A stretch of DNA of 63,140 nt, counting the filler, from Octopus bimaculoides (lineage: Eukaryota): NCBI RefSeq assembly GCF_001194135.2. It is 6 parts of 5 records of this genome, joined end to end, with 100 filler letters (N's around TTAATTAATTAA, not from the genome) between each part and the next. Parts side by side here need not be neighbours in the genome. Positions count along the whole stretch, not along the records: positions 16,295 to 43,724 come from NC_068983.1; positions 43,825 to 56,650 come from NC_068989.1; 4 more parts are not named here. One strand, 5' to 3'. Position numbers and translations under genes: made by a program. This document shows, one piece after another, positions 4,419-62,650 of this stretch (the stretch's first letter is position 1; each line of letters opens with the position of its first letter). Below the pieces are notes generated by a model. The model had not been told where the DNA came from, ran no database searches, and was given only the letters and a program-made list of their open reading frames with translations.

Positions 4419-4634
4419 TGGCAAATAAGGTAACTTAATAACGGACAAAGGATACAAAAAATGACATACATCAACTGGTAGACTTTCTAGTATGTCTATT
4501 TATTTATTTATTTATTTATTCTAAAGTATTAGAAAGTATTAGAAATAAATAAAGAAATAAATAAATAGACACGCTAGAATGTCTACCGGCTGCTGTATGT
4601 CATATTTGTATCCTCTCCATTTACTTATTTGCCG
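4419..4634. mobile_element. Palindromic MITE-like element (~215 bp fold-back)
   Basis: Left arm tggcaaataag…ggatacaaaaaatgacataca..tggtagactttctagtatgtctatttattta pairs with right arm aaataaatagacacgctagaatgtctacc..tgtatgtcatatttgtatcc..cttatttgccg. Flanked by TA on both sides. Confidence 0.7.
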
Positions 4635-38954: not shown

Positions 38955-39556
38955 TTATCTGATTTAGAAATAATACATTTCTAAATCTCTCAGTGAGATT
39001 TATGCTGTAGTGATACGATTAAGTAGTTGTATGCTGTCAACTTAAGGTGACAGTCCCCTGAAGGGAATAATACTACTGTTGCTTAGACCTAGGAAGCTGC
39101 ACCGCTTCCTGTCGGCCTTGACACTTTTCCTGTGTCCTTATGTTTACAAGGGGGAGACAAGCACCTCCACCCAGCTAAGCCTGCATCCAGAGACATGTTT
39201 CTGAGTCTTTGCTCGTCATCAGTCTGGAGTAGCAATGGCCTGCTATTTGGAAGATGCCTGTCAAGCGCTCGTAAACATATAATAATTCTTGTGAAATACA
39301 TTCACTGGTTTCAAATTTAGAAACAATACATTTCTAAATCTCTGAGAGAGATTTATGCAGTAGTGATACGATGAAGTAGTTGTTTGCTGTCAACTTGATA
39401 TGACAGTCCTCTGAAGGGAAACATAAGGACACAGGAAATGTGTCAAGGCCGACAGGAAGCGATGCAGCTTTCTAGGTCTAACCAACAGTAGTAGTATTCC
39501 CTTCAAGGGACTGTCACATTAAGTTGACTGTATACAACTACTTCTTTTATCTGATT
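38955..39556 (-). mobile_element. Small non-coding HHR-bearing retroelement (retrozyme-like or miniature Penelope-like) with 10-bp TSD
   Basis: Direct repeats at 38962-39067 and 39315-39420 (period 353 nt). 39421-39543 is an inverted copy of 39021-39143. HHR at 39186-39228. TTATCTGATT occurs at both 38955-38964 and 39547-39556. Confidence 0.7.
39186..39228 (-). ncRNA. Type I hammerhead ribozyme (minimal)
   Basis: Minus strand: TCCAGA-CTGATGA-CGAG(CAAAGA)CTCA-GAAAC-AT-GTC-TCTGGA. It has a perfect 6-bp stem I, canonical core, palindromic stem III ACATGT and a GUC triplet. The stem II closing pair is C-A, consistent with a CpG-to-CpA decay of C-G. Confidence 0.8.
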
Positions 39557-40171
39557 GTTCAATTTAAGGCAATTTTGACAAGGCTATTGAAAGGTAATAA
39601 AGTATTCTGCACATACAAGTCATCCTGAAAGTAATTCGTGTGACTATATCTCAATTAAATACAGGATTCAAATTCATTTTTAGGTCCTCCACTGGGAAAT
39701 GTGAACCAGGTACAGAGAAACATGCGCTATACATGGAATGCTGGAGATTCGTTGACGACATGATACTTTATCTTAAATAGGCAAAGAACTTCAAAAACCT
39801 TAGGGAACTTTACGCCATATTGTTTAATATGTTGTGAACTGTCTAATAACTTGGAGTTTGTCTTACGTATCGTAATGATTTTGTCGCAGATTTCAAGAGT
39901 CAAGCTCAACAGATCTACCCTGCTAGGGATACAGGGTATACAGATGCAATCTATGACTTGAAACTTAACGAAAATTTCATGAATGTAAATGGCCAGGAAA
40001 AATACCTACTTCCTGAACCTAATCGCACATAATTTAGCTACAAAAAATATTTAAAGATACTTCATTAAAGCATATGTTATTAATTAACCGAAAATTATAA
40101 TTGTGTATTCCTTTGTCATCTTATCTTTTTATTACCACCCACCCTGTGTTCTTCGTTCTAAAGCATATATA

Positions 40172-40206
<35 letters not shown>

Positions 40207-41992
40207 TGAGTTCTACATTAGGCTATTAGTTTCGCGAATCCTAAGCGAAATGTGTGTGTTTGTGTGTGTTCTATTTGTGAAGATGTTTCTCATCTATATC
40301 GTAAATTCAAGGTTTTTTCCAATAATTTTAAACTTCAATTTACTCTTAGAAATGAACTCATACAAAGTATCTCGTGTTGTAACTTAAACTACACTAAACT
40401 TGCAAGTCCGTGTGTTTTTTTTTTGTTACCTTGAATGCTCTTAACTACTCTCACACAAAAAAAAAACCCAACTTAACTTACCTTAACTTACTATCTACCA
40501 TCTACTCATCTATTCACTAAAACACCAAATTTCACATATCCTCATTTTAATACTGCCCACGCACACATATAAATGTATCAACGTGTTTTATAGGTTAGGT
40601 CTCTATAAGTATGTGTGTGTCTATATATAAGCCCATGTTTGTATTTGTGTATACAGATAGGTTAGTGTACGTATTTATATATGAGTGTGTATACACATAT
40701 ATGTTGCGTGCACGCATATACATACACGTTTATCAGTGATATATGTGCGACTATGTACATGTATCTATATATAAACACATGCACCAGAACACACGCACAA
40801 TTATACATAAATATAAACACGCACAAATGCATAGATATGTACGTGCTATATGCATACGTGTATTTTGGTTGTTGCTTTTATTGTTTTGATATATGTATAA
40901 AAGTATATACATACATGTATAAACATATAATACGTGTGTCTAATAATTATATCCCTTTTTGTTATTATTTATCCTTTACTCTTCGTTTTTACATTCCCCA
41001 GTTTATTTAGCCTTTTACTTATGTACTTTTACATATATAACTAAAAGTTCTTCGCAGCATAGATTACACATGCTATTCATCCATGCAGAACCTCTTTGAT
41101 GTCATTGCTTTAAATACTTGCTTACAACAATGTTTATATATTCACCTACCGTTAATATTTTTTCCTATTAATTCGTTTTATTCCCTTTCACTCTACCAAA
41201 AACTTCCACAGCACCAGTTCTCCCTCCTTTATGATTTATATTGACTTTTCGTATCACGATACACCCCAATAACATATTTTAATAGTATGAGCATATTTAT
41301 AAATTGATAACACATGAGCATACCAACTTATTTGAACTTTTACCTACACTACTCTTTAAAAATAGTCTCCAATTTCTTTTCCCATGCTCACGCAATTGAG
41401 TCTGGTAATCCTAGTTTTCATTACGTTCTTTACAAAATTAATTAATACGAATTAGCTGCAAATTTCATTGGCCAATAATAATTCGTCCATTTAATACTTA
41501 ATCACAATCACTGGTACTCATTTCATGTCATTACAGCCGAATATCCTCATAGTTCCTTAACGTTACTCACACTTACACGTACACACATGCAAACATAGAA
41601 CAGACATACAAAGGGCTCTTTAGCACTTATTTCTAGCAATGTAGGTGTTCTAACACCTTAGTCATATTTAGTGACAATTATAGTTTCCTTCTTCGGTACC
41701 ACATTGCACACAGCTGTGTATATACATACGTACATACATACATACATACATACAAGATNNNNNNNNNNNNNNNNNNNNNNNNNNNNNNNNNNNNNNNNNN
41801 NNNNNNNNNNNNNNNNNNNNNNNNNNNNNNNNNNNNNNNNNNNNNNNNNNNNNNNNNNNNNNNNNNNNNNNNNNNNNNNNNNNNNNNNNNNNNNNNNNNN
41901 NNNNNNNNNNNNNNNNNNNNNNNNNNNNNNNNNNNNNNNNNNNNNNNNNNNNNNNNNNNNNNNNNNNNNNNNNNNNNNNNNNNNNNNNNNNN

Positions 41993-42100
41993 GTGTCTTC
42001 TACTATAGTCTCGGGCCGACCAAAGCCTTGTGAGTGGATTTGGTAGACGGAAACTGAAGGCAGCCCGTCGTATATATGTGTATAAATATATATATATGTA

Positions 42101-42131
<31 letters not shown>

Positions 42132-42326
42132 GTGTGTGTGTGTGTCTATGTGGCTGTGTTTGTCCCCCTACTATCGCTTGACAACCGATGTTGTTGTGTT
42201 TACGTCCGCGTAACTTAGTGGTTCGGCAAAAGAGAGCGATAGAATAAGTACTAGGCTTACAAAGAATAAGTACTGGTGTCCATTTGCTCTATTAAAGGCG
42301 GTGCTCCAGCATGACCACAGTTAAAT
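41993..42326 (+). mobile_element. SINE family B body and tail
   Basis: gtgtcttctactatagtctcgggccgaccaaagccttgtgagtggatttggtagacggaaactg…(TA)(TG)…cgcttgacaaccgatg…gttcggcaaaagagagcgatagaataagtactaggc…aaaggcggtgctccagcatgaccacagttaaatg. Confidence 0.85.
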
Positions 42327-43361
42327 GTGTGTGTGTGTGCGCACACACGCAAAATACGCACACGCACTCACACGCGCACACATGTATATGACTTAATTTA
42401 ATTTTAATTTGAGTCTGTTAAAAGCACACAGATAACAAAATCTATAAACATACGTAATGATATATGCTAAACTCAGTCATTATATTGATTCAAAAGCGTC
42501 GTTCTTTGCCTTTTGTAATTATTTAGTCTGCACGTTATCCTTACATTTACATCTATAAATATTTCCTCAAATCAATACCCAAATTATCTTAAGATAGTAT
42601 TAAGACTTTTCTTTTTTTTTCAAATTCATAATTATCGAGCAGAAATTCTATAAATTACTATAAGTATTTGGATTACGCACACACAAACATGCATACAGAC
42701 ATACACGCACAGACACACACACATACGTGTTTTCATATGTATGCCATTTATACATAAATATATATATACATATACACACACACACATCCATCTATATATG
42801 CATATTCCTCTAAATCACATTGTTCAATAAAAGTGCAAGCTGAAATATTTTCTTTTACAAACGCATTGAAATACAAAAATTAGTTTCAGTCTTCCTTCAA
42901 GCCTATGTTTCTTTCCCATTCTATAGTTACTGTGATTAGAATATTCTGTGATTAGAAGAATGTATCCCTTACTTCATGCTTCCTTCAATATTTCAGCGAA
43001 TTATAAATTTCGATTATCATCCGTTCATCTATAATGCAGCGCAAAATCTTTACCATATAATTATTTTTTTACTAACGGCCATCTTTACAAGAAATATTTC
43101 CGTTTTACTTTTCTCCTTTAATATCTCGACGTTTATTTATAACATTGCCCTCTCGTAATCATAATAATATATTTTTATATCTATTTTTCTAAATTATAAC
43201 AAGTATTTCAAGAAGCTCATTAGAGAGATATATTACTTCCTTTGTCAGGAGAATGTAAAATACGAAAAAAATTAAAATATTATGCTCCGCTAATTAGCTG
43301 TGACTCGCAGTTCTTTTCTACCTTATTCTGTTTGTTTTTGTTTCACAGAACACATTCTGTT

Positions 43362-43394
<33 letters not shown>

Positions 43395-43684
43395 CATACA
43401 TACATATATATATATGTGTGTGTATGTATGTGAGGGTGTATGCATGCATGATTGTGTATATCTGTGTGTGTGTTTACATATCCATGTCTATCTGTTTCTC
43501 TTACTGTCTATCTACCTAAAATACGTGTGTGTGTGCTCACATATGTATACACATCACACACAAACACACAGAAACATACTTCGGTTTACACATATATATT
43601 TACTTACGTATGTATGAATATATCTACGCATCTTTCTTTCTACTTATCTAGATTTTCTCTGTGTATGTATATACATACATATAC

Positions 43685-43724
<40 letters not shown>

Positions 43725-43921
43725 NNNNNNNNNNNNNNNNNNNNNNNNNNNNNNNNNNNNNNNNNNNNTTAATTAATTAANNNNNNNNNNNNNNNNNNNN
43801 NNNNNNNNNNNNNNNNNNNNNNNNATATACATACATATACACATACGTACATACATACATACATACATACATACATACATACATACATACATACATACAT
43901 GCATACATATACATATATATA

Positions 43922-44535
43922 CGAGGGAGAGTCAAAAATTATATGCACTCTTGTTTTTTCAAAATATTTACTCAAAAACAGAGGATTAAAAAGTACATCA
44001 TTTTTCTATATCATCCCGTTCCTTTTCCATACACCTGTTCCAGCGTCCACAAGCTTGCGCATTTCCTCGTTTGGATGAATAGTCATTTATACTCCGTTTT
44101 CTTCTCATCTTCATCTGTAGGAAATCGACGACCTTGTAAACCATCTTTGAGCAGTCCAAAGATATTATAGTCGGAAGGGGTGAAATGTGAGCTGTAAGCA
44201 TGTTGTTCTAGCACCTCAAAACCTAAATGGTTAATAGTTTCAACGGTCTGGGCGGCCATGTCTGACGTGCATTGTTATGGAACATCAAAACTTTCTTCGA
44301 AAATGGGCTTCGGCATTTGGTGCGAATTGCTAGCTTCACGTTGGCCAGCAAAGACTGTATCTTGCGCTGTTGATCGTACACAACTTTCCCAGGGAAATCG
44401 AATCACTGCTCTTTTTTCTTCTTTGGTGCACATTGCTAGTGGAGCGACTATACTTACACTGCAATGCCAGAAAGAAAAATGGCACAATCAGGCTCAACCT
44501 TCGATCAGGTGACCACAATAGTAACACGGATAAAC
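43922..44535 (-). mobile_element. Internally deleted mariner (Mos1/DD34D-type) element
   Basis: TA-CGAGGGAGAGTCAAAAATTAT terminus. Minus-strand N-terminus IVAPLAMCTKEEKRAVIRFPWE. C-terminus DNAR..AAQTVETINHLGFEVLEQHAYSSHFTPSDYNIFGLLKDGLQGRRFPTDE…GRWNRCMEKERDDIEK* (cf. HPPYSPDLAPSDY). The central part of the transposase is missing. Confidence 0.85.
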
Positions 44536-44624
44536 ACGTATGTGCAGAATGTGTGTGTGACCATAATAACACTTTCTTATGGCAAAATGGTGGATAATTC
44601 TTAACTTCTTGTATTTTTATGACG

Positions 44625-44768
44625 GGTTTCCTTCTACCAAATGTACTCACAAAGCTTTGGTCAACCCGAGGCTATAATAGAAGAAGACACTTGCCCAAAG
44701 TGCAACGCAGTGGACTGAACCCGGAACCCTATGCTTGGGAAATAAGATTCCTACCACACAACCACACC
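44625..44768 (-). mobile_element. SINE family B head
   Basis: Reverse complement: gtggttgtgtggtaggaatcttatttcccaagcatagggttccgggttcagtccactgcgttgcactttgggcaagtgtcttc…agcctcgggttgaccaaagctttgtgag. Confidence 0.8.
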
Positions 44769-45428
44769 TAAACATACATCGGAACTCTCAAGAAACCAAA
44801 GAACCCAATCTGGAATTTCCGTAGAGACATTGAAATAAAAGCAAAATATTTATAGATTGTGTGTCGGTTTGTGTGTGTATGTATGTGTGTGTGTATGCGT
44901 GTGCGCGCGTGTGTGTGCATGTGTAAGTGTTCCATGAGAAAGGACACATAAGAAACTGTGGAAAAGTGCTGTAGCGGGAAGCGATGATAAATATATTACA
45001 GATTCAGTGTAACATAATTATGTGCAGAAAGTATTTGATTCTATAAAGACTTTGCTTCCATACTGGAAACTTTAAAAATTATTGTGCGAACGAAATTGAC
45101 TCTGTATATGAACATATTTTTAATTTACTGGAAAGACTTTGGGTACCTGAAACAAAAAAAAAATTACGAAGTACAGAGAAACGATTGTAATTCTCTCCCG
45201 CACATGAATTTGCACTTATTTTCTGTACTTCTACGAATATTTCTGCACAGATTATAAAAGATATATTTAACCTTGTGTAATTTCGTAATACCAATCATTA
45301 GATATGAAAGCCAGAATGGATGTCTTTCGTACGTAATTTGGCCTCATAGTTATAGAGACCCAAAATATTACAGATTCTTTGTTGAATGTGTGATATCTTC
45401 TTTTTTCACACGATCCATTGATCCACTG

Positions 45429-45459
<31 letters not shown>

Positions 45460-45462
<3 letters not shown>

Positions 45463-46162
45463 CATTTAAAATACAGAGATGCCTATAATAGGACATCTAA
45501 CCCGCTAGAAAGAGCAGCAAAAAACTCTATACCACAAAAATAGGGATATTTTTTTTTACTGCTCTTTCTAGCGGGTTAGATGTCCTATTATAGGCATCTC
45601 TTTATTTTAAATGAATAATTCATAGTCTATTGACTAATTTTTATTCTCGCTGGATCACTGGTGGTAAATTAAATTTCTAAATTTTTTTTGCTGCCCTATG
45701 ATTTATTAATAATGATAATATATTTTTTGGCTAATTTCTGAAGGAAAATCAGCATTTGTTTTATATTTACTGCCGATAAGTTAAACCGCACATGCGCGGT
45801 AAATTTTGAAAAATTAAGCATATAAGCACAAGTCGTGTTTCCTATGACTCGTGTTTACACGCTGTCCCGGTACTCTGTTGAAGATAGGCCCGAGCAAGAT
45901 GTATTTTTATCTTGCTAAATAACTTGAAACCATGGTACAGAGTATAGACTGGTAAAAGTTTTTATTTTTCATTCTCTTTCGAAACTATGCCTATTTTTGT
46001 GGTATAGAGTTTTTTGCTGCTCTTTCTAGCGGGTTAGATGTCCTATTATAGGCATCTCTGTATTTTAAATGAATAATTCATAGTTTATTGACTAATTTTT
46101 ATTCTCGCTGAACCACTGGTGGTAAATTAAATTTCTTAATTTTTTTTTGCTGCCCTATGATT

Positions 46163-46167
<5 letters not shown>
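45460..46167 (+). mobile_element. Small non-coding HHR-bearing retroelement inserted in (TA)n
   Basis: Direct repeats at about 45553-45708 and 46012-46167 (period about 458 nt). 45460-45544 is the reverse complement of 45990-46074. HHR at 45871-45944. (TA)n runs flank both ends. Confidence 0.7.
45871..45944 (+). ncRNA. Type I hammerhead ribozyme (U3 variant)
   Basis: TACTCTG-TTGAAGA-T-AGG..[AGCAAGAT/GTATTTTT/ATCTTGCT]..CTT-GAAAC-CATG-GTA-CAGAGTA. It has a perfect 7-bp stem I, palindromic stem III ACCATGGT and a GUA triplet. C3 is U and stem II is extended with an internal loop. Confidence 0.7.
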
Positions 46168-46219
<52 letters not shown>

Positions 46220-47800: not shown

Positions 47801-48468
47801 NNNNNNNNNNNNNNNNNNNNNNNNNNNNNNNNNNNNNNNNNNNNNNNNNNNNNNNNNNNNNNNNNNNNNNNNNNNNNNNNNNNNNNNNNNNNNNNNNNNN
47901 NNNNNNNNNNNNNNNNNNNNNNNNNNNNNNNNNNNNNNNNNNNNNNNNNNNNNNNNNNNNNNNNNNNNNNNNNNNNNNNNNNNNNNNNNNNNNNNNNNNN
48001 NNNNNNNNNNNNNNNNNNNNNNNNNNNNNNNNNNNNNNNNNNNNNNNNNNNNNNNNNNNNNNNNNNNNNNNNNNNNNNNNNNNNNNNNNNNNNNNNNNNN
48101 NNNNNNNNNNNNNNNNNNNNNNNNNNNNNNNNNNNNNNNNNNNNNNNNNNNNNNNNNNNNNNNNNNNNNNNNNNNNNNNNNNNNNNNNNNNNNNNNNNNN
48201 NNNNNNNNNNNNNNNNNNNNNNTGTGTGTGTGGGTGTGTGTGTATCATAGCTAACCACCTAGACTTTTTTTCTGCAAAATAGGGGTAGTTTGTTCTGTTC
48301 AGGCTATATTATTAGCATTATCCTGCGATTGAGAATTTAAAATCGCCTCTTTAACTTTCTAAGACATCTCAACGCTTCTAAAAGCAAACTTCGTTTATTT
48401 GTTTACGTTTATCGTAATTTGAATGTATACATATATATAAATATATATAAAGCAAATAAAAAATGGAC

Positions 48469-48540
48469 AGGATAATCAATCGACAAACATCACCCTGTTA
48501 GCATTAATTTACAGGCTGATGTTTGTCGAATGATTATCCT
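48469..48540. other. 72-nt hairpin (30-bp stem, 2 mismatches, 12-nt loop)
   Basis: AGGATAATCAATCGACAAACATCACCCTGT - tagcattaattt - ACAGGCTGATGTTTGTCGAATGATTATCCT. Confidence 0.85.
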
Positions 48541-50602
48541 CGCCATGTTCTTATTTGCCTTAAGAATTCTAGGTAAATTTCTACTTTATCCTACTCATAC
48601 CTAGCATTCAATTGCGGTGCTGCCCGGCAATAATGAACATTTGGATATAAATACGTAGGTATACATCCAGTAGTATATTATGTATTTATTATCCCTTAGA
48701 TGGTTGCTTAAACTCTAACTCATACAGATATGTGTGTGCGTGTTTGTGTGTGCGTGTGTGTGATGATGATTATCCGTGCATATGTTTTATGCATTGTATG
48801 CATATAAACTATTTTACTCACATATAACGGAGAATACTACTCTGAATTTTACGTTTTACCGATTCTGAAGTAACAGAAGAAATAGAGGTGTTCCCTGTTA
48901 AGAACAGAGATTATCGAAGTTTGGAAAGGCGTCTCGGTCATTCGATTGGTAGCCATTTTGAAATATGTTTCGAGAAAATCATTGAATGTAAAATGCTCAT
49001 TAATAAAAAGAAAATAAACTTCGTGTTAACTGATTTGGATCAAGAATCCGTTTGATACCTGCATCAGCAATGTTAAATCATCACGCACTTTAAAGTATTT
49101 TTTGAAATATTTTCATTTTAAAGTCAAAATAATCCTCTAGAATTTATATTGAATAATATATGCAGTATTTCTCCGAAATACAAAGCTCACAGCTATCATT
49201 TCACTGATTAAAAGATTTGGCAGTTGTAATTATTATACATATAATTGTATTGTCTCTAATATTGATATTTAGTTAAAACTGCATACCATCATAAGAAAAA
49301 CAAAAAAAAATATGCTGAAAAATATTAACGGTATTTGAATCTATGTCGATCTTGACTGAAGCTGAAATTAGAAATGTTTCCATGGCACTGCAACAGAATC
49401 CATACAAATGGATTCATTAGTATTGATTTCCAAGCAAAATTAAAGGAGTATATAAATTATGGGATAAAGCAATTTACAGAGGGTTAACTGTCGGATGAAG
49501 AATATTTAAATATCGGCAAAAAGTGAAATTATGAGTAATTTTGTGTATTTTCGGCTGGCAAATATAGGTTTTCTACTGAAAATCTTTTAATCAGCGTAGT
49601 AACGTCCCTTCTTATTTTCAGCAGACAAGACCTCTTGACATATAACAAAAAAATTTAGGAAAACCCCAAACACACATGCATGCCTAAGAAATATAGATAT
49701 AGCTTATACTACATTGAACAATCCACAGGCTATACGTTTTAGAATATATAAATCTATTAACCATTATTCATATCGAACTTATATCCTCATTCACGTTACT
49801 GCACACATCCAGTTAAGTCTTCAACAGGTAAGAGAAAAACTTAAAGAAACTTTGTAACTCATATACACATATAGAGACGTGTGTGTGTATGTGTGAGTAT
49901 TTGCATCTGTGCGTGTGTAGAACATACAATTGGAATAAAAGGTGTAACTGCAATGCAATAGTTCATTTCAAACGTCTTTACCTCAATCTAAACTACATTG
50001 GGAAGATTGGAGTAATGAAATAATGGAACAGGAAATATCAGCCTGCGGACAGATTTACTTTTAGTAAACATATATTTCAATTGCTCTAAGCATTATAATA
50101 CTATGCAAAATTTAACGCCGTTAAACTGTGCTAATCATCTACAGAGTATTGCACAAAAAAAAAAGCATTTTATTAAATATTACACAATTACTGTGAATTT
50201 AATAGAAATTAGGTTACATATTACTATATAATAATTTGGTATTATATACACAATCGTTTTGCTATCCTTTTAAGATTTCAAGATTTAATATTCAGGTGAT
50301 AAAATCATAATATATAATGTGTAACTTAAGATGTTCCACATTTAGAATTAATAACACTAGTATGTAGTGTGAATTAGTCAGAAAATTTGAAATCAAAAGA
50401 AACTGGAAATCATGTCTTAAACTCTAAGAGTTTAGTACATAAGAAATATTATTAGAATATAAGTTATTAAAATATATATATATATATATTCATATTTGAG
50501 AGTGTGTGTACACACACGCACACACGCACACACACACAACGACAGACGTACACATACAGATAGACACACGCAAAAACATACACGCTCACATGCACAAACA
50601 TA

Positions 50603-51842
50603 CATGAGGAATTCGTGAAACCATTGTAGAGACGCTTCCGGAAAAAAAAAATTCAGTAACCGTTGGAAAACTATTATAGCAGTGTCTCAATCAATTCCTA
50701 GTGATATCTGAAGAAGAGGTATTTATGTATTCCGGAATATTATTATTATATCAGACTATGGATGATTAAATTATTCTGTTATTATACTCCACTCTGCATT
50801 GTTGTGCCATTCGAGATATGTTATAATTTACAAACAATACACAATGCTTCAAGCGAACTACAATACTCTCCTATCTCTACGCCTGAACCAGGCCGAGTTC
50901 GTAACCGCTAGGAAGGTATATTTATGCTATCAGAGAAACGTGCTAAAATCGGATGCCAAATAAACTTTCTTCAACGCTGTACCATTTTAGCGAAAATTTA
51001 ACTGCATACAAAGACAAAGATTACACATACCACTAGCTCACTCCGGCCCCTCTCTGAGAAGACACGTAGCAAAGAAACGAGTAAGGGGCAGCAAACAGTG
51101 CACACTAGCTAACTTCCTCATCCGTGACACAGATTTATGCCAACGGGTATAAATGCTGCGTATAGAATACATTGTAACAAATGCAACAAGTTCTATGTGG
51201 GTAGCACAACAAGATCGTTACGATTTTTGCATCAAAGAACATCTGAACATGAGAGCCTCCTCCTGCAGAAAACATCTCGACAAATACCAGAACACCAACA
51301 AAAGCATAACAGTCGTAATTGAGGCTAATGAAGGAAGCTATACTCATAGACAGACTAGGGCCCCAAATTAACAGCAGGCTGGAGGTTGGCAATCAATATT
51401 TGGCAATCATTGAACTACTTCTGGATGCGTGTAGATTCATGTATTATATAAAAAAAGAAACTGCGCGTATAATACATAACTTAGAAGCAGCGCTGCGGAT
51501 GTGCCAGCGCATACGAGCATGATACATGGCCGCTGTCACGCACTTCTCATGAGGAATTCTAGAAGGAGCTTTCTGAGACAACTGCAGCGAGGCTTCCGGA
51601 AACAAAATCCAGTAACTGTTGGAAAGCCTATTATAGCAGTGACTCAATCAATTCCTAGCGATTTCTGACGAAGGATTTTTTGTATTCCGAAATATTATTA
51701 TTATTATTACATGAGACTATAGATAAATAAGTTATAACAGTTATTATACTCCACTCTACATTGCTGTTCCATTTATGACGCGTTATATTTTACAAATAAT
51801 ACACAATGCTTGAAGCGAATTACAATACTCTCCTATATCTAT
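50603..51842 (+). mobile_element. Internally deleted Penelope-like element with two pseudo-LTR-like direct repeats
   Basis: Diverged direct repeats at about 50603-50880 and 51548-51842. Between them are MLSEKRAKIGCQINFLQRC (50924-50980, like the PLE N-terminal K…H..FL..C motif) and GIY-YIG remnants YRIHCNKCNKFYVGSTTR..IKEHLNMRASSCRKHL..EAILIDRLGPQINSR (51137-51385). No RT is present. Confidence 0.75.
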
Positions 51843-54610: not shown

Positions 54611-56235
54611 CAAACATGTATATTTATGTGTCCTTGCGTGTATGTTTATACATAATTTTAGTATTACGTTTAAAAGATAAGAAAGATAAAAACGTGACGG
54701 AAGTGCTAAAAGTATCGTGTATGACACAAAGTGTTTGTAAGTTCAATACACGGAAAATTCGGCCCTTCAATTTCACATATACTGCGATCCAGATCTGCTG
54801 TTCATTAAAACGTCCGCGCTTACGCACGCACACATACACAGAACACACACACTCACACACAGAGAAACGCATGTTCACACATGCGTTCAAATAATACTTT
54901 CAATTCTCTTCTACTTGATTATAGAGGGATTTTTTTCTGTGTTTGTTTAATGCGTCGTCAAAAACAATTATCGATATAGAAAAGCCCCCTCCTCTTCGTT
55001 TTTCTCGCTCGCTCTCTTTCTGTTTCTCTGAATCCCTCTCCAAATTTAATGATACAATTGTCAAACTATGACTAATAACCAATTATTAGCATATATTCGG
55101 TAAAATAATTGCATTTATTTCAAAGTTACTATGCTTCAAAGGAACATTATTAAATGCAATACCGTTGCTGTTGTTTTCTATTCATGAATTTCATTACGAT
55201 ATCATACAATATTTAATTTATTCCGGACATTTGTTTCATTCTACATGTCTGTAATTATTTTAATAATTTTGAGAAATCATTTACATTTACATCTTATACA
55301 TCTCGTATTTGATAGTATTATTTATATGTATCTTTGAATATCACATCTTAGCAGTATCGAGGTGTAAATTATGAGGACAGCTTTCATTCAAAGTCCTATA
55401 GGTCTTATAATCAACAATAGTCAGTATACAATCCAATGAATTTTATAATAATGACTTTGATTCCGTTGCCATAATTATAATTGGTTTATTTTTATTTGAT
55501 TCAAAGCAATATTTTCTGGAATTACTAAATATTGAAAATGATGTTGCCAATTCCATTCTGATATTGCTGAAGCATATAAATAATCAAATTATATTTTCTG
55601 TTGAAGAATGGAAGTACAATTAAATGATTGTTATCCATGTTTTGTGAAATGATGTACAATGAGAAAGAAGAATGAGGGTAGAACTTTAATATATAAGAAT
55701 ATAAATTTACAAAAATATTCACAATATATAGTACAACATATGAAGTCAGTGTATCAATGTGTTCCATAATTATGACGTAAATTTCTCAACTGGGGCTTTG
55801 CAAATGTATTTCGATACTCATATACAAAACATTTCTTTCCTAGTTAAACTAAAAGCTGGACCGGCAAAGTGTTTATGAATGATAATATAGTTAACGCATA
55901 ATTGTTACAATTAATATCAAAAATATGCCACCATATTCGAATGTTAGACTACATAAATGGCATTGTTTTTTTATCTGTACTTCTGTGAGTTCATTTTGAA
56001 ACCTATCAAAATTAGCTCATCTCCAGCTCCTATCAGACCGCTCATGTCTACAAGCAATGGTTCCGTCTATTCTCGTCAGAAAGTGTCGTACTCTCGCCAC
56101 AACATCTCCCACTTTGAGACTTCGAGTTCTGTAGGAATAAAGAAATTATATTTATTATTATTAATCTTTAGTTTCGTTTTGGCTTGGGCCTCATCTGAAG
56201 TTATTCGTTCTGCTTCCGGTTTACCATACTGGTTA

Positions 56236-58706: not shown

Positions 58707-58844
58707 GTTCAGTAGTTTTATTTTTATAACGTGCTTTCACTTCACNNNNNNNNNNNNNNNNNNNNNNNNNNNNNNNNNNNNNNNNNNNNTTAATTAATTA
58801 ANNNNNNNNNNNNNNNNNNNNNNNNNNNNNNNNNNNNNNNNNNN

Positions 58845-59150
58845 NGGGACCTTACACCACCCACAAATCTGGTCGGTGGCTTTCAACAGGTTGTCCCGCA
58901 GAAATCTCCAATTGTCTTCCACGTTGTATGATGCTATATCCCCTTCTATTTCGTTAAATGCTTCAAGTAACTTGTCTCTAAGTCTCTGTCCGTTTGCAGG
59001 GTCTTTAAGCTTCCACACCCTTCTTCTCCAAGCCTGTCTAATTCTGGGCACCCATTTTGCCTTGATCCCAAAGTCGCTAACTACTAATCTATGTTGTGGG
59101 GTACATTCTTCGCCAGGGTAGGTTTTGGCATTTATAAGCCGCCCTCTTCC
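58845..59150 (-). mobile_element. RTE-like LINE ORF2 fragment (end of APE domain and linker)
   Basis: LINAKTYPGEECTPQHRLVVSDFGIKAKWVPRIRQAWRRRVWKLKDP…LLKATDQICGWCK matches the .VIPGE….QHRLLV.D…..WKLK…..A…CG pattern of RTE ORF2. Confidence 0.8.
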
Positions 59151-59339
59151 CATATGAAATAAACTAAAATGGTGTTCCAGTTTCATGAGGATCTCTTTAA
59201 TTCTTGTGAGGCAATCTTCAAACCTGCCAATGTGGTTTGGAGTGTTTGGTGGGTGTTATGTATTGCATATGACTATATTGCATTGTCTTATGTATACAAT
59301 TAGAGTGCCACATACTGAATTTGAGTATGACTGTAAAAC

Positions 59340-60490
59340 AGGGTAGTTTGGACACGGGCTGAGGGGTATCCTCGATGCATGAACAGGTGGGCAAGGTACT
59401 GGGACTGGGTCTCAACATCCTGGTCCCAGCTGCACAAGTGTCGGAGAAGGAGAAACTGGGAGTAGGAGATGGTCCGTTTGGTATGGGAGGGATGGCAGAG
59501 GAAAAGTTGAGGTAGAGGTGGGAATCTGTGGGGTTGAAGAAGGCGGAGGTGATGAGATAGTGGGAGGGGAGGTCAATGGTAAGAAAAATATCTAGGAAGT
59601 TAACCGATGTGTTAGAAATGGTAGAAGTAAATTGGAGAGAGGGGTGGAAGTTAGAGAGCAAAGTTGTTTGTGGGAGAGGGAGGTGACGCCTATACAATCG
59701 TCTATGTAGTGGTCGTATAGCTCTGGGATCGGTCTGGAGAATTGTGAGAATACTTTGGCCTCAATGTGACCAACAAATAATAGGTTGGCAAAACTGTGGC
59801 CCATACTTGTTTCCATAGCAACCCCAGACAGGTTTTGGTAGATCTCCCTGGTGAATGTAAAGTAGTTCAGGATGTGGATGAGCTCTGCCAGATGGAGAAG
59901 GGTAGAGGTGCTGTGTGTGGGGTCAGGGCGATGGTTGAGGAAGTATCGGAAGGTTAAGAGACTGTCATTACAGGGAATCACCATGTATAGGGATTTGATG
60001 TACAAGGTGAAGAGATGATGTGAGGGGCCAGGAGGGAAGAAGAAGGAATTGAAAAGGTAAAGGGCATAATTGGTGTCATGTATATGGGATGGAGGGCGGC
60101 AACTAAATGGGACAGGATGTGGTTAAGGTATTTTGAGATGAGTTCTGTGGAGTAATTGCAGGCGGAAACAACGGGCGGCCAGGGTTGTCGGGTTTATGTA
60201 TTTTGGGAAGGAAATAGATGGTGGAGGTACTGAGTATTCGGACAATGAGGTTGGTGGGGTGGGGGGCAGAAGTGGAGACAAGGTCGTGGATGCTGGAGGA
60301 GGTGGGCTCGAAGGGGAAGAGGGGATTTCAAAGCTGGCTGAGCACTTTCTCCCTGTATAGGTCCACACGCCACACCACCACTGCTCCACCTTTGTCTGCC
60401 AGCTTGACAACAATGTCGTTGCAGCGACGGAGGTCATCAAGGGCGATCAATTCAGCCTGAGTAATGTTGGCATGGAGGGAGTTAGCAGTC
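59340..60490 (-). mobile_element. Penelope-like element reverse transcriptase (frameshifted, truncated at both ends)
   Basis: Minus-strand motifs: NITQAELIALDDLRRCNDIVVKLADKGGAVVVW; IYFLPKIHKPDNPGRPFVSAC; IKSLY; QNLSGVAMETSMGHSFANL; YDHYIDDCIG; FHPSLQFT..SVNFLDI; NPTDSHLYLNFSS; HRGYP. These are all typical PLE RT motifs. The 5' end abuts (TA)n. Confidence 0.9.
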
Positions 60491-60995
60491 ATATATATAT
60501 ATATATATTTACATATATGTTTATGTATCTATTTGTGCATGTCTTTATGACTGTGTAGACCAATAACATAACTTCCAGGCTTTAAAATATTAAATCCTGG
60601 AGTTGATTCATTCGACTAAAACACTTCAATGTGATGCCCCAGCATGGTTGCAGTTAAATGACTGAAACATAAAAGATAATATATATACATACATACATAC
60701 ACACATATATATATATATATATTTACATATATGTTTATGTATCTATTTGTGCATGTCTTTATGACTGTGTAGACCAATAACATAACTTCCAGGCTTTAAA
60801 ATATTAAATCCTGGAGTTGATTCATTCGACTAAAACACTTCAATGTGATGCCCCAGCATGGTTGCAGTTAAATGACTGAAACATAAAAGATAATATNNNN
60901 NNNNNNNNNNNNNNNNNNNNNNNNNNNNNNNNNNNNNNNNTTAATTAATTAANNNNNNNNNNNNNNNNNNNNNNNNNNNNNNNNNNNNNNNNNNN

Positions 60996-61378: not shown

Positions 61379-62164
61379 AATATAATAAAGTGAACGTGTA
61401 TTTGCAAGCTGATTTAAATACTGTCAACACTGACTTAAAAGTATGTAATTGCAACCAATTACTCGGGCTCCTTTTATTAAGTCTGGTCGCAGTTCATTTA
61501 TTTTCCTTCAGAGTCTGGTGGTCATCTTAGAGGTGCCCTGCGTCAAAAAATATCATTCGTAGTAGACGTTCTCTCGACATCTTTCATACGCGCCTGACTC
61601 AGGCTCGGAAGTTACAGCTCGAGTTGTTATGTATAATCGTAAAAATTAAAAGTAGTTCAAATTCAATATTTTCTTGAAATAATAAATTTCAATAGAGATT
61701 AGGATTTAAATCTCAATCTATGAAAAGCTTCCATTCTACAATACTCTTAATGAAAAATTATCTAGTAACTAATTACGAAAAGGACTAACTGGCATCTCTT
61801 GTCAAGAGTACAGGCAACAGTCAGATCGGTGATGTTTGATGTACAACTCCGCTTTCATTATTTGATTGCTGTTATTCTGTGTTTTGCATGCTTGCCTTAT
61901 TTTTACGCTTAACTTAGAAATGGAGAAACACATAGTGCTGGATATAAAAAGGTAAGCCATTTGGGGCTAGAAATATTGCGGAAAAAAGGTAAGGCATTCT
62001 TTCGTTAGAAGCAGCAAACTTGCTTATTGTTAAATTATTCGTGCATATATAAGTCTGCGGTGTGCATTACGCCTCTTACCTTTTTTTATTCATGTGTCTT
62101 ATGCGAAATCTGTCATGAGCCCGAGTAACGCTGATGACCTGCAGTCGCCTCTGACATACATACA

Positions 62165-62650
62165 TACTGTAAATAATAATAATAGGATTTTATAAGCTTA
62201 AAGCTTATAGCGATCACTGCTCAATGACTAAAGAAAATAGTCTAATAATGGGGCATATAAGCCTTCAACAGAAAAAATAAGTTTTCCCGTACGCATGGGT
62301 GTCGGACCTACACCTCTCTGTTTACGCGACCGAGTGTGCTACCGATTACACTAGCGAATCTATCTGTTTTTTTTTGTCAGATTTAAGAACTATAATGAGT
62401 TCGTAGTTGTTTTTGTAAACAAATTTTCATGTGCTTTTACTGCGAATAGTTTTGTTAAGCAGTGCCGGTTTTTACAATACGTTAAATAATAATAATAGTA
62501 TTTTATAAGCTTAAAACTTACAGCAATCACCGCGCAATGACTAAAGAAAATAGTCTAATAATGCGACAGAAAAATATTTACTCGTACGCGTGGGAGTTAG
62601 GGCTTTGTGGAGAGTTAGGGCTTTGTGGAGAGTTAGGGCTTCGAACGAAC
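62165..62650 (-). mobile_element. Two tandem copies of a third tRNA-derived SINE (family C) with (ATT)n tails
   Basis: Units 62165-62360 and 62485-62650 share aaataataataatag.attttataagcttaaa.ctta.agc.atcac.gc.caatgactaaagaaaatagtctaataatg. The reverse complement of 62300-62360 is a tRNA-like head (gctagtgtaatcggtagcacac…gtaggtccgacacc). Confidence 0.6.

What the first reader, a model, noticed from the sequence alone, without database searches (positions are those of the whole stretch)
38955..46170. Two unrelated small non-coding elements share one architecture: inverted segment + truncated repeat + hammerhead + full repeat
Seen: read in the ribozyme-sense direction, both the 39-kb element (minus) and the 45-kb element (plus) have the same order. 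They begin with an inverted copy of the first part of the 3' repeat, then a 5'-truncated copy of that repeat, then a unique core holding a type I HHR, then the full repeat. Each is about 1.3 units of a circularly permuted monomer (353 and about 458 nt). The two share no sequence similarity that I can see and have no ORF. Established: minimal type I HHRs with palindromic stem III occur in Penelope-like pseudo-LTRs and in metazoan non-LTR retrozymes, which make small self-cleaving circular RNAs, and partial tandem and inverted repeats are characteristic of Penelope insertions. Inference: these are genomic footprints of ribozyme-bearing circRNAs copied more than once round by a Penelope-type RT, with a 5' inversion formed at integration. 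That would be a family of retrozyme-like parasites in a cephalopod. I do not know whether this has been described in this lineage.
Basis: partly seen in the sequence, partly recalled or inferred. Interest (0 to 1): 0.88.

Follow-up and report, generated by a model that had tools for sequence, protein, structure and literature searches.

The report
Hammerhead repeats inserted Penelope-style
Two unrelated short, protein-free repeats that each carry a hammerhead ribozyme motif are copies of two very abundant families, and the shape of their insertions shows they were likely pasted in by Penelope-type retrotransposon enzymes, a known kind of parasite whose predicted self-cutting and RNA circles are untested here.

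Summary
E1 (38955-39556, minus) and E2 (45457-46167, plus) each consist of an inverted partial copy, a 5'-truncated copy and one full non-coding unit (353 and 458-459 nt) with a type I hammerhead. E1 has a 10-bp target duplication; E2 sits in (TA)n. Public reads show two very abundant families (summed depth about 2x10^4 times a single-copy flank). E1's hammerhead shows compensatory changes, and the head-to-tail seam recurs in other copies (seamless in E2), so the short units are real. But copies do not end at varying permutation points: E1 ends pile up at two fixed sites 59 nt apart. That is the published Penelope-like (PLE) signature of inverted copy, partial tandem and tail. Best reading: non-autonomous PLE-mobilised elements (metazoan non-LTR retrozymes) copied from a longer-than-unit RNA. 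Whether that RNA is a circle or an uncut tandem transcript is unresolved; cleavage is untested and no helper is linked. The circle-plus-PLE model is in print (2014, 2020, 2026 preprint), and this scan already noted the same kind on other DNA of this and other genomes. I found no cephalopod description in print. New member of a known kind; moderate interest.

The parts
38955..38964 (.). E1 target-site duplication, copy at the element's 3' end (its last 3 nt overlap the element end)
   Evidence: identical 10-mer at 39547-39556; 4 of 20000 random flank window pairs share a 10-mer
38962..39314 (-). E1 full unit, 353 nt, non-coding, GC 0.43
   Evidence: family depth up to 8.5e5 against 39 in the flank; folding z -6.6 against 40 shuffles
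38962..39020 (-). E1 'tail': 59 nt between the outer (38962-38965) and inner (39021-39024) fixed 3' termini
   Evidence: loose ends with long unrelated flanks pile up at both sites
39186..39228 (-). E1 type I hammerhead: 6-bp stem I (predicted to extend past a 3x1 internal loop), CUGAUGA core, 3-bp stem II flanked by an extra C and A, palindromic stem III; predicted cut 39192/39191
   Evidence: compensatory stem I and stem III changes in the family
39315..39420 (-). E1 5'-truncated direct copy (106 nt) forming the pseudo-LTR
   Evidence: 10 mismatches in 106 to 38962-39067
39419..39544 (+). E1 inverted 5'-truncated copy ending at the inner terminus; 2-nt overlap with the direct copy at the junction
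   Evidence: 93% to 39021-39145
39547..39556 (.). E1 target-site duplication, copy outside the inverted arm
45430..45459 (.). (TA)n target, left of E2
45457..45552 (-). E2 inverted 5'-truncated copy ending at the inner terminus (about 46077); junction inside a T run
   Evidence: 97% to 45982-46077
45552..45708 (+). E2 5'-truncated direct copy (157 nt)
45709..46167 (+). E2 full unit, 458-459 nt, non-coding, GC 0.32; the seam into the next unit is continuous in the family
   Evidence: folding z -3.3 (computed on 45708-46165)
45870..45945 (+). E2 type I hammerhead: 8-bp stem I, core with U3 in this copy (C3 in the family), long stem II, palindromic stem III; predicted cut 45937/45938
46078..46167 (+). 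E2 'tail': 88-90 nt between the inner and outer 3' ends
   Evidence: 29 contigs of run X14 end near 46080 into (TA)n
46166..46204 (.). (TA)n target, right of E2

Best explanation
E1 and E2 are old insertions of two unrelated, abundant, protein-free repeat families with short hammerhead-bearing units, likely mobilised in trans by a Penelope-like (PLE) reverse transcriptase-endonuclease. Shown: short unit with a recurrent head-to-tail seam, two fixed 3' termini (clear for E1, weaker for E2), inversions at variable inner points, a 10-bp target duplication or a (TA)n target, hammerhead covariation in E1. Inferred: the enzyme nicks both strands of an AT-rich target and primes two cDNAs at two internal start sites of a longer-than-unit RNA. 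The cDNA from the outer site runs through the uncut hammerhead and past the seam for 1.3 units. The cDNA from the inner site is short and ends up inverted, and the two 5' ends are joined through 1-2 nt or a T run of microhomology. The template is an uncut tandem transcript or a ligated circle (about even odds). The hammerhead likely cuts, best as a dimer through palindromic stem III, and would release monomers as in mussel and axolotl retrozymes.
For: (E1): contigs laid 4784 (X2) and 4470 (X14); peak summed depth 8.5e5 against 39. Loose ends with long unrelated flanks: 43 contigs at 38964 (X2); 30, 35 and 52 at 38963, 38964 and 39021 (X14); RNA reads 80, 34, 42 and 27 at 38963, 38965, 39021 and 39024 (24 of 601 rows shown). 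Seam joints 39314 to 38962/38965 in 3+2 (X2) and 4+2 (X14) contigs, one per run being this locus, and 4+4 RNA reads; 9 of 12 shown insert rows (of 35) lie at that seam with A-run length variants. Opposite-strand joints at 7 different position pairs among 15 shown (of 42). Stem I pairs change together: 39223/39191 at 0.49/0.50 and 39227/39187 at 0.46/0.49 of X21 reads; the stem III palindrome is kept by a double change at 0.18/0.16. (E2): depth 1.58e5 in the bin across the seam against 1.0e4 over the same letters at the unit end; contigs 45665-45806, 45679-45834 and 45689-45811 span it; 25 RNA reads continue from 46167 into the unit start. Craig 2021 (PMC8557442) describes exactly partial tandem + inverted 5'-truncated copy + tail, and non-autonomous PLEs. 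Frangieh 2024 (PMC11167929) ties the tail to two internal RT starts, AT-rich nicks on both strands and a predicted dimer. An octopus PLE with a hammerhead and (TA)n preference exists (Hydra-1_Obim). A decayed PLE-type RT lies in this window.
Against: No autonomous element sharing sequence with E1 or E2 was found: six short motifs gave 0 hits in the Craig supplement, and Hydra-1_Obim resembles E2 only in the hammerhead core and stem III (by eye). The tails (59 and 88-90 nt) are longer than the 30-40 bp usually reported. Each locus holds one hammerhead, so neither meets the 'two consecutive hammerhead units' rule for an active retrozyme. No pile-up of RNA ends at either cut site (table 6). One shown E1 tandem joint (39219 to 39021, depth 131) is a truncated copy joined to the inner terminus, so tandems also arise without a full round. 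The E1 query stopped at 39314, so what lies upstream in most copies was not displayed. The inner terminus was not among the six rows shown for X2, and the E2 termini are only partly resolved. Summed contig depth is not a copy number.
Confidence: 0.78

Rival explanations
1. Strict form of the first reader's model: the hammerhead cuts out monomers, a host ligase closes them, and the PLE RT rolls round the circle more than once. This is a sub-case of the best explanation that specifies the template.
For: Seamless seam in E2 and recurrent seam in E1. The direct arm crosses the cut site intact. Both units fold better than shuffles (z -6.6, -3.3). In E2 the RNA is dominated by one variant whose shown loose ends all continue as unit sequence and whose reads cross the cut site. 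Mussel, coral and axolotl retrozymes give abundant circles (PMC7229834).
Against: Genomic tandem copies produce the same reads, so seam-spanning RNA is not diagnostic. E1 RNA mostly runs into unrelated flanks (0.79 of reads run on unlike; fixed flanks at both termini). In vitro the Anolis PLE used unprocessed RNA and hammerhead mutants inserted normally (PMC11167929). One of two control flanks also folded at z -2.1.
Confidence: 0.4
2. The pieces are only 5'-truncated stumps of the 3' end of a long autonomous PLE, joined by template jumps; 353 and 458 nt are chance truncation lengths and no short unit exists.
For: This is the commonest PLE product (PMC8557442; PMC4209133 reports opposite-strand hammerhead pairs 100-700 bp apart). 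Three unrelated metagenome loci (L003, L008, L012) show head-to-head hammerhead arms with no tandem unit. The joint 39219 to 39021 is of this type.
Against: The seam recurs at 39311-39314 in several contigs of two organisms and is crossed about 15 times more deeply than the E2 unit end is left. No ORF remnant is evident upstream of either hammerhead.
Confidence: 0.12
3. The families are satellite-like tandem repeats spread by DNA-level processes (unequal crossover, extrachromosomal circles), and the inversions are later fold-back accidents.
For: E2 is mostly head-to-tail; satellite-type expansion of retrozymes is discussed in 10.64898/2026.07.22.740005.
Against: One 10-bp target duplication frames the whole of E1, inverted arm included. 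The inverted arm ends exactly at a family-wide terminus. Dispersed copies have unrelated flanks at two fixed ends.
Confidence: 0.05
4. The families are SINE-like passengers of a LINE (RTE, CR1), with L1-type twin-priming inversions.
For: LINE fragments are abundant in octopus genomes (PMC8967140), and Cervera 2020 left LINEs open as helpers.
Against: Twin priming (recalled) inverts an upstream, internally primed part at variable sites; here the inverted arm starts at a fixed second terminus. There is no poly-A tail, and a two-terminus tail is described as unique to PLEs (PMC11167929).
Confidence: 0.05

Closest known systems
Metazoan non-LTR retrozymes (PMC7229834: coral 220-245 nt, mussel 350-390 nt, axolotl 330/350 nt; vertebrate survey 10.64898/2026.07.22.740005)
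   Same: Short non-coding unit of similar size with a type I hammerhead, weak palindromic stem III, GC under 50%, TSD longer than 4 bp, head-to-tail organisation, very high copy number.
   Different: Here each locus has 1.3 units and one hammerhead, plus an inverted arm and two fixed termini, which the passages read do not describe for retrozymes. Circles and cleavage are shown there, not here. No cephalopod appears in the parts read.
Insertions of endonuclease-bearing Penelope-like elements (PMC8557442 Fig. 2 text; PMC11167929)
   Same: Partial tandem forming a pseudo-LTR, inverted 5'-truncated copy at the 5' end, tail at one end only, hammerhead upstream of the termini, AT-rich or (TA)n targets.
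   Different: No RT-GIY-YIG ORF; the unit is 353-459 nt instead of 2-4 kb; the tails are 59 and 88-90 nt instead of 30-40.
Hydra-clade PLEs, including Hydra-1_Obim (PMC8557442 supplement)
   Same: (TA)n targets as in E2; hammerheads with extra nucleotides on both sides of stem II as in E1; CUGAAGA core and a similar stem III as in E2.
   Different: No sequence similarity seen outside the hammerhead (by eye), so it is a candidate helper type, not a shown parent.
Non-autonomous Chlamys PLEs such as MRC1 (PMC8557442)
   Same: Protein-free PLE derivatives with pseudo-LTRs and multicopy head-to-tail insertions.
   Different: Green algal; most Chlamys elements lack canonical hammerheads; they resemble their autonomous partner at the 3' end, a link missing here.

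Membership tests
Metazoan non-LTR retrozyme | Type I hammerhead in the unit | tested here: met
   E1 covariation; family core C3 in E2. Rfam models did not hit.
Metazoan non-LTR retrozyme | Short non-coding unit, GC under 50% | tested here: met
   353 and 458-459 nt, GC 0.43 and 0.32, no ORF of 110 aa
Metazoan non-LTR retrozyme | Head-to-tail organisation of the unit in the family | tested here: met
   seam crossed continuously in E2 and recurrently in E1
Metazoan non-LTR retrozyme | [quoted passage not shown] | tested here: inconclusive
   each locus here has one hammerhead; the contigs laid are too short to show two in other copies
Metazoan non-LTR retrozyme | Target duplication longer than 4 bp | tested here: met
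   10 bp for E1; hidden in (TA)n for E2
Metazoan non-LTR retrozyme | Absence of PBS and PPT | not tested
   no tRNA-primer search was run
Metazoan non-LTR retrozyme | Self-cleavage in vitro | not testable with these tools
   bench assay needed
Metazoan non-LTR retrozyme | Monomeric circular RNA in vivo | tested here: inconclusive
   seam-spanning RNA reads exist but genomic tandems explain them equally; no pile-up of ends
PLE insertion signature | Partial tandem forming a pseudo-LTR | tested here: met
PLE insertion signature | Inverted 5'-truncated copy at the 5' end | tested here: met
   other copies invert at other points
PLE insertion signature | Tail at one end only (two fixed 3' termini) | tested here: met
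   E1 termini 38963-38965 and 39021-39024; E2 weaker; lengths 59 and 88-90 nt exceed the usual 30-40
PLE insertion signature | AT-rich or microsatellite target | tested here: met
   AT-rich flank consensus at E1 termini; (TA)n on both sides of E2
Autonomous PLE | ORF with RT and GIY-YIG endonuclease | tested here: not met
   no ORF in either unit; not filed as autonomous
Non-autonomous derivative of a named PLE | Terminal sequence shared with an autonomous partner | tested here: inconclusive
   no genome held; 0 hits for six motifs in one supplement

The most novel reading that the evidence does not exclude
These are abundant cephalopod retrozyme families whose genomic scars directly record the helper: a PLE RT dimer starts at two fixed sites on a ribozyme-made RNA circle and copies it past one full round, giving a 1.3-unit arm and an inverted arm. 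Both outer start sites lie about 230 nt downstream of the cut site in otherwise unrelated units, and one rare E2 variant supplies most of the RNA, which would make the proposed circle-to-genome step of animal retrozymes testable with a purified PLE protein.
Probability: 0.35. Interest if true: 0.65.

Novelty: new member of a known kind. Interest (0 to 1): 0.4.

Why it matters
The helper of animal retrozymes has been proposed from shared ribozymes, co-occurrence and pseudo-LTR homology. Short hammerhead units that carry the PLE-specific two-terminus, inverted-arm scar add direct structural support and define two candidate RT start sites per family that can be tested in an existing in vitro system. 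The families also add many thousands of hammerheads to a genome in a lineage where I found only a count of Rfam hits (giant squid) and one autonomous element in print. The architecture itself is the ordinary PLE footprint and should not be read as a new system.

Tried and rejected
No whole genome is held, so genome-wide BLAST was replaced by two read lays. Rfam missed both hammerheads. No indexed holder of 38430-40140 is on record as RNA (no RNA holder listed). An exact 24-nt E1 motif gave 0 metagenome loci. A relaxed E1-type hammerhead pattern gave 14 loci: 6 have hammerhead-like cores in non-coding AT-rich DNA (L001, L003, L004, L008, L012, L014), the other 8 lie in gene-dense contigs and were set aside as chance, and none is E1 family. 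E1-E2 homology rejected: one 30-column AT-rich patch, 4 of 300 shuffles, one of four comparisons, at non-matching positions. Variable permutation points rejected for E1. A 'collision' model for the overlap of the two arms was dropped because any two arms truncated upstream of the inner terminus overlap. Pfam gave no family for the two decayed PLE-RT frames, a protein search for longer relatives scored none of 306 candidates, and a search at near lengths could not be made. A relaxed scan found no further hammerhead at the window's other repeats (one extra weak hit at 55567 rejected for a poor core and stems). A sequence look-up in earlier scan notes found no look-alike of E1.
Full report
Observation. 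Both elements are as described. E1 reads on the minus strand: an inverted 125-nt copy (39544-39419), a direct 106-nt truncated copy (39420-39315) and a 353-nt unit (39314-38962). An identical 10-mer at 38955-38964 and 39547-39556 frames all three parts; 4 of 20000 random flank window pairs share a 10-mer. E2 reads on plus: an inverted 96-nt copy (45457-45552), a direct 157-nt copy (45552-45708) and a 458-459-nt unit (45709-46167), between two (TA)n tracts. My scripts used 45708-46165 for the E2 unit; the reads place the seam at 46167/45709. The same scan found a third motif at 22324-22403, and 2 of 100 shuffles of the window gave any motif of this quality. Rfam missed both. There is no ORF and no convincing E1-E2 homology.

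Families. No genome is held, so I laid public runs on one unit of each element. For E1, 4784 contigs of run X2 and 4470 of run X14 (a second organism) were laid, and summed depth rose from 39 in the flank to 8.5e5. For E2, 1670 and 1906 contigs were laid, with a peak of 6.4e5. The tool warns that this depth is not a copy number, but both are plainly very abundant families. X14 holds a contig that runs from the E1 flank into the element with 12 substitutions and 12 gap positions in about 290 nt, so this insertion predates the split of the two organisms. At 4 of the 10 sites where unit A differs from copy B, and at 39082 and 39125 against copy C, the family majority sides with B or C (only 40 of 268 variant rows were shown), which fits one insertion followed by decay.

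Ends are fixed, inversions are not. Among 24 of 601 loose-end rows shown for E1, those with long unrelated flanks sit at 38963-38965 (43 contigs in X2; 30 and 35 in X14; 80 and 34 RNA reads) and at 39021-39024 (52 contigs in X14; 42 and 27 RNA reads). These are exactly the outer end of the direct arm and the outer end of the inverted arm at this locus. The rows at 39010 and 39234 continue as diverged unit sequence. Seven of 15 shown joints (of 42) change strand, at seven different position pairs; four involve 39231-39234, where alignment to this copy ends, so they may be inexact. For E2, 29 contigs of X14 leave at 46059 into about 20 variant letters followed by TA repeats, matching the inner end near 46077-46080, and the last bin over the (TA)n keeps a depth of 1000-1400; only 24 of 388 rows were shown, so E2's termini are less firm.

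The short unit is real. In E2 the seam is crossed without a break: depth is 1.58e5 in the bin 45700-45717 against 1.0e4 over the same letters at the unit end, three X14 contigs span it, and 25 RNA reads run from 46167 into the unit start. In E1 the joint 39314 to 38962 or 38965 appears in 5 contigs of X2 and 6 of X14 (one per run is this locus) and in 8 RNA reads, and 9 of 12 shown insert rows are the same seam with A runs of different length. Against this, one shown joint (39219 to 39021, depth 131) is a truncated copy joined to the inner terminus, and the query ended at 39314, so upstream sequence in most E1 copies was not displayed.

The hammerheads. In E1, both changing pairs of stem I change on both sides at matching frequencies: 0.49/0.50 and 0.46/0.49 in X21, 0.46/0.41 and 0.42/0.32 in X2, 0.71/0.78 and 0.69/0.63 in X14. 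The stem III palindrome is kept by a double change (0.18/0.16 in X21, 0.024/0.022 in X2). These are column frequencies, not phased pairs, and may reflect few events. Constrained folding extends E1 stem I past a 3x1 internal loop, closer to the canonical metazoan layout of 6-bp helix I and 4-bp helix II than to the minimal PLE type (PMC4209133). Extra nucleotides on both sides of stem II occur in published PLE hammerheads. The U3 of the E2 copy is private: all family depth at 45878 reads C. Cleavage is untested; in the 2026 preprint 1 of 9 tested dimers cut.

RNA. E1 reads (826 in X21) come in both orientations, are mostly 95% or less alike, run on into unlike sequence in 79% of cases and do not cover this locus's flank: passive read-through of many copies. 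E2 reads (576 and 470) are dominated by one variant that is rare among laid DNA contigs (at 45780 and 45794 over 90% of RNA reads against 1-2% of X2 depth); its shown loose ends all continue as unit sequence and it crosses the cut site. That suits a circle or an uncut tandem transcript equally. Neither lay showed a pile-up of ends. About 6% of each RNA run was read.

Mechanism. Craig et al. 2021 describe PLE insertions as partial tandems with an adjacent inverted 5'-truncated copy and a 30-40-bp tail at one end. Frangieh et al. 2024 show that a PLE protein nicks both strands of AT-rich DNA, starts reverse transcription at two internal sites that bound the tail, is predicted to be a dimer, and uses mainly unprocessed RNA. 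I infer two target-primed cDNAs, one from each start site, joined head to head by microhomology (2 nt in E1, a T run in E2). The long arm passes the cut site and the seam, so the template was longer than a cut monomer. Whether it was circular cannot be told from these loci. The helper is not identified. Hydra-1_Obim has a hammerhead and targets (TA)n but shares only core features with E2 by eye. A decayed RT with PLE-type motifs lies at about 59290-60490 minus (atlas hits to RVT_1 clusters at 0.94; motifs matched by eye to Neptune rows), with no link to either family. Three unrelated metagenome loci show head-to-head hammerhead arms (L003, L008, L012), so the inversion is generic.

Prior work. 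Circular templates for more-than-unit PLE copying were proposed in 2014 (PMC4209133); metazoan retrozymes, their circles in mussel, coral and axolotl, and PLEs as likely helpers in 2020 (PMC7229834); pseudo-LTR origin in a 2026 preprint on 31 vertebrates, 3 insects and 1 coral. Searches for cephalopod cases returned a count of 235 Rfam hammerhead loci in giant squid (PMC6962438), Penelope abundance in coleoids (PMC8967140) and the Craig elements, but no description of these families; the library lacks most subscription papers, Repbase and Dfam. What I saw: 10.64898/2026.07.22.740005 parts 1-3 of 5, no supplements; PMC7229834 parts 2-4 of 6, supplement unreadable; PMC4209133 parts 1-2 of 4 and a term search in 2 of 3 supplement files (no octopus hit); PMC11167929 parts 1-2 of 4; PMC8557442 passages plus supplement parts 2 and 52 and four term searches; PMC6962438, PMC8967140 and PMC7761336 passages only. 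L1 twin priming is recalled, not looked up. Earlier notes of this scan report the same kind in this and other genomes; they are unchecked and not counted as evidence.

Verdict. New member of a known kind, interest 0.40. The boldest open reading, a PLE dimer copying a ribozyme-made circle from two fixed starts, has about 0.35 probability.

Noticed in passing
window 22324-22403 (minus; motif 22318-22409): Third type I hammerhead motif with a 10-bp stem II base and palindromic stem III, unrelated to E1 and E2, with no local repeat found; the opposite strand upstream has a decayed reading that looks coding. Flanked by assembly gaps.
   Followed up: partly
window about 59290-60490 (minus): Frameshifted RT fragment with PLE-type (Neptune-like by eye) motifs, starting right after a (TA)n tract, no endonuclease part; followed by a different LINE-like fragment at 58797-59255.
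   Followed up: partly
window 45821-45848: In the dominant expressed E2 variant the sequence after 45816 is, by eye, the reverse complement of this hairpin segment: a small internal inversion distinguishes it from this copy. DNA depth also falls here.
   Followed up: no
window 45731, 45780, 45794: One E2 variant that is rare among laid DNA contigs supplies 70-95% of RNA reads in two runs, suggesting a single source locus or small subfamily.
   Followed up: no
window 39191-38962 and 45938-46167: The outer 3' terminus lies 227-230 nt downstream of the predicted cut in both unrelated units (two cases only); the inner termini do not match (171 and 140 nt).
   Followed up: no
window 62164-62250 and 62477-62563: 87-nt direct repeat, 91% alike, 313 nt apart, no hammerhead found; a short run of telomere-like 6-mers follows near 62600.
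   Followed up: partly
window 4449-4614, 48448-48562, 34626-34914: Three more decayed fold-back segments without a detected hammerhead; the one at 48448 starts at a TA tract.
   Followed up: partly
window 50616-50879 and 51574-51841: 270-nt direct repeat, 81% alike, about 960 nt apart.
   Followed up: no
window 20690-21046, 25815-26244, 29686-29918, 32171-32385, 35353-36295, 37538-37671: A dispersed repeat family of about 230 nt in single, tandem and inverted arrangements, probably a SINE (not tested).
   Followed up: no
window 36878-37440 and 60490-60896: Perfect 255-nt and 193-nt duplications beside assembly gaps, probably assembly artefacts.
   Followed up: no
L003 2832-3056, L008 366-706, L012 886-1194: Head-to-head inverted arms each holding a hammerhead-like core in unrelated metagenome contigs.
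   Followed up: partly
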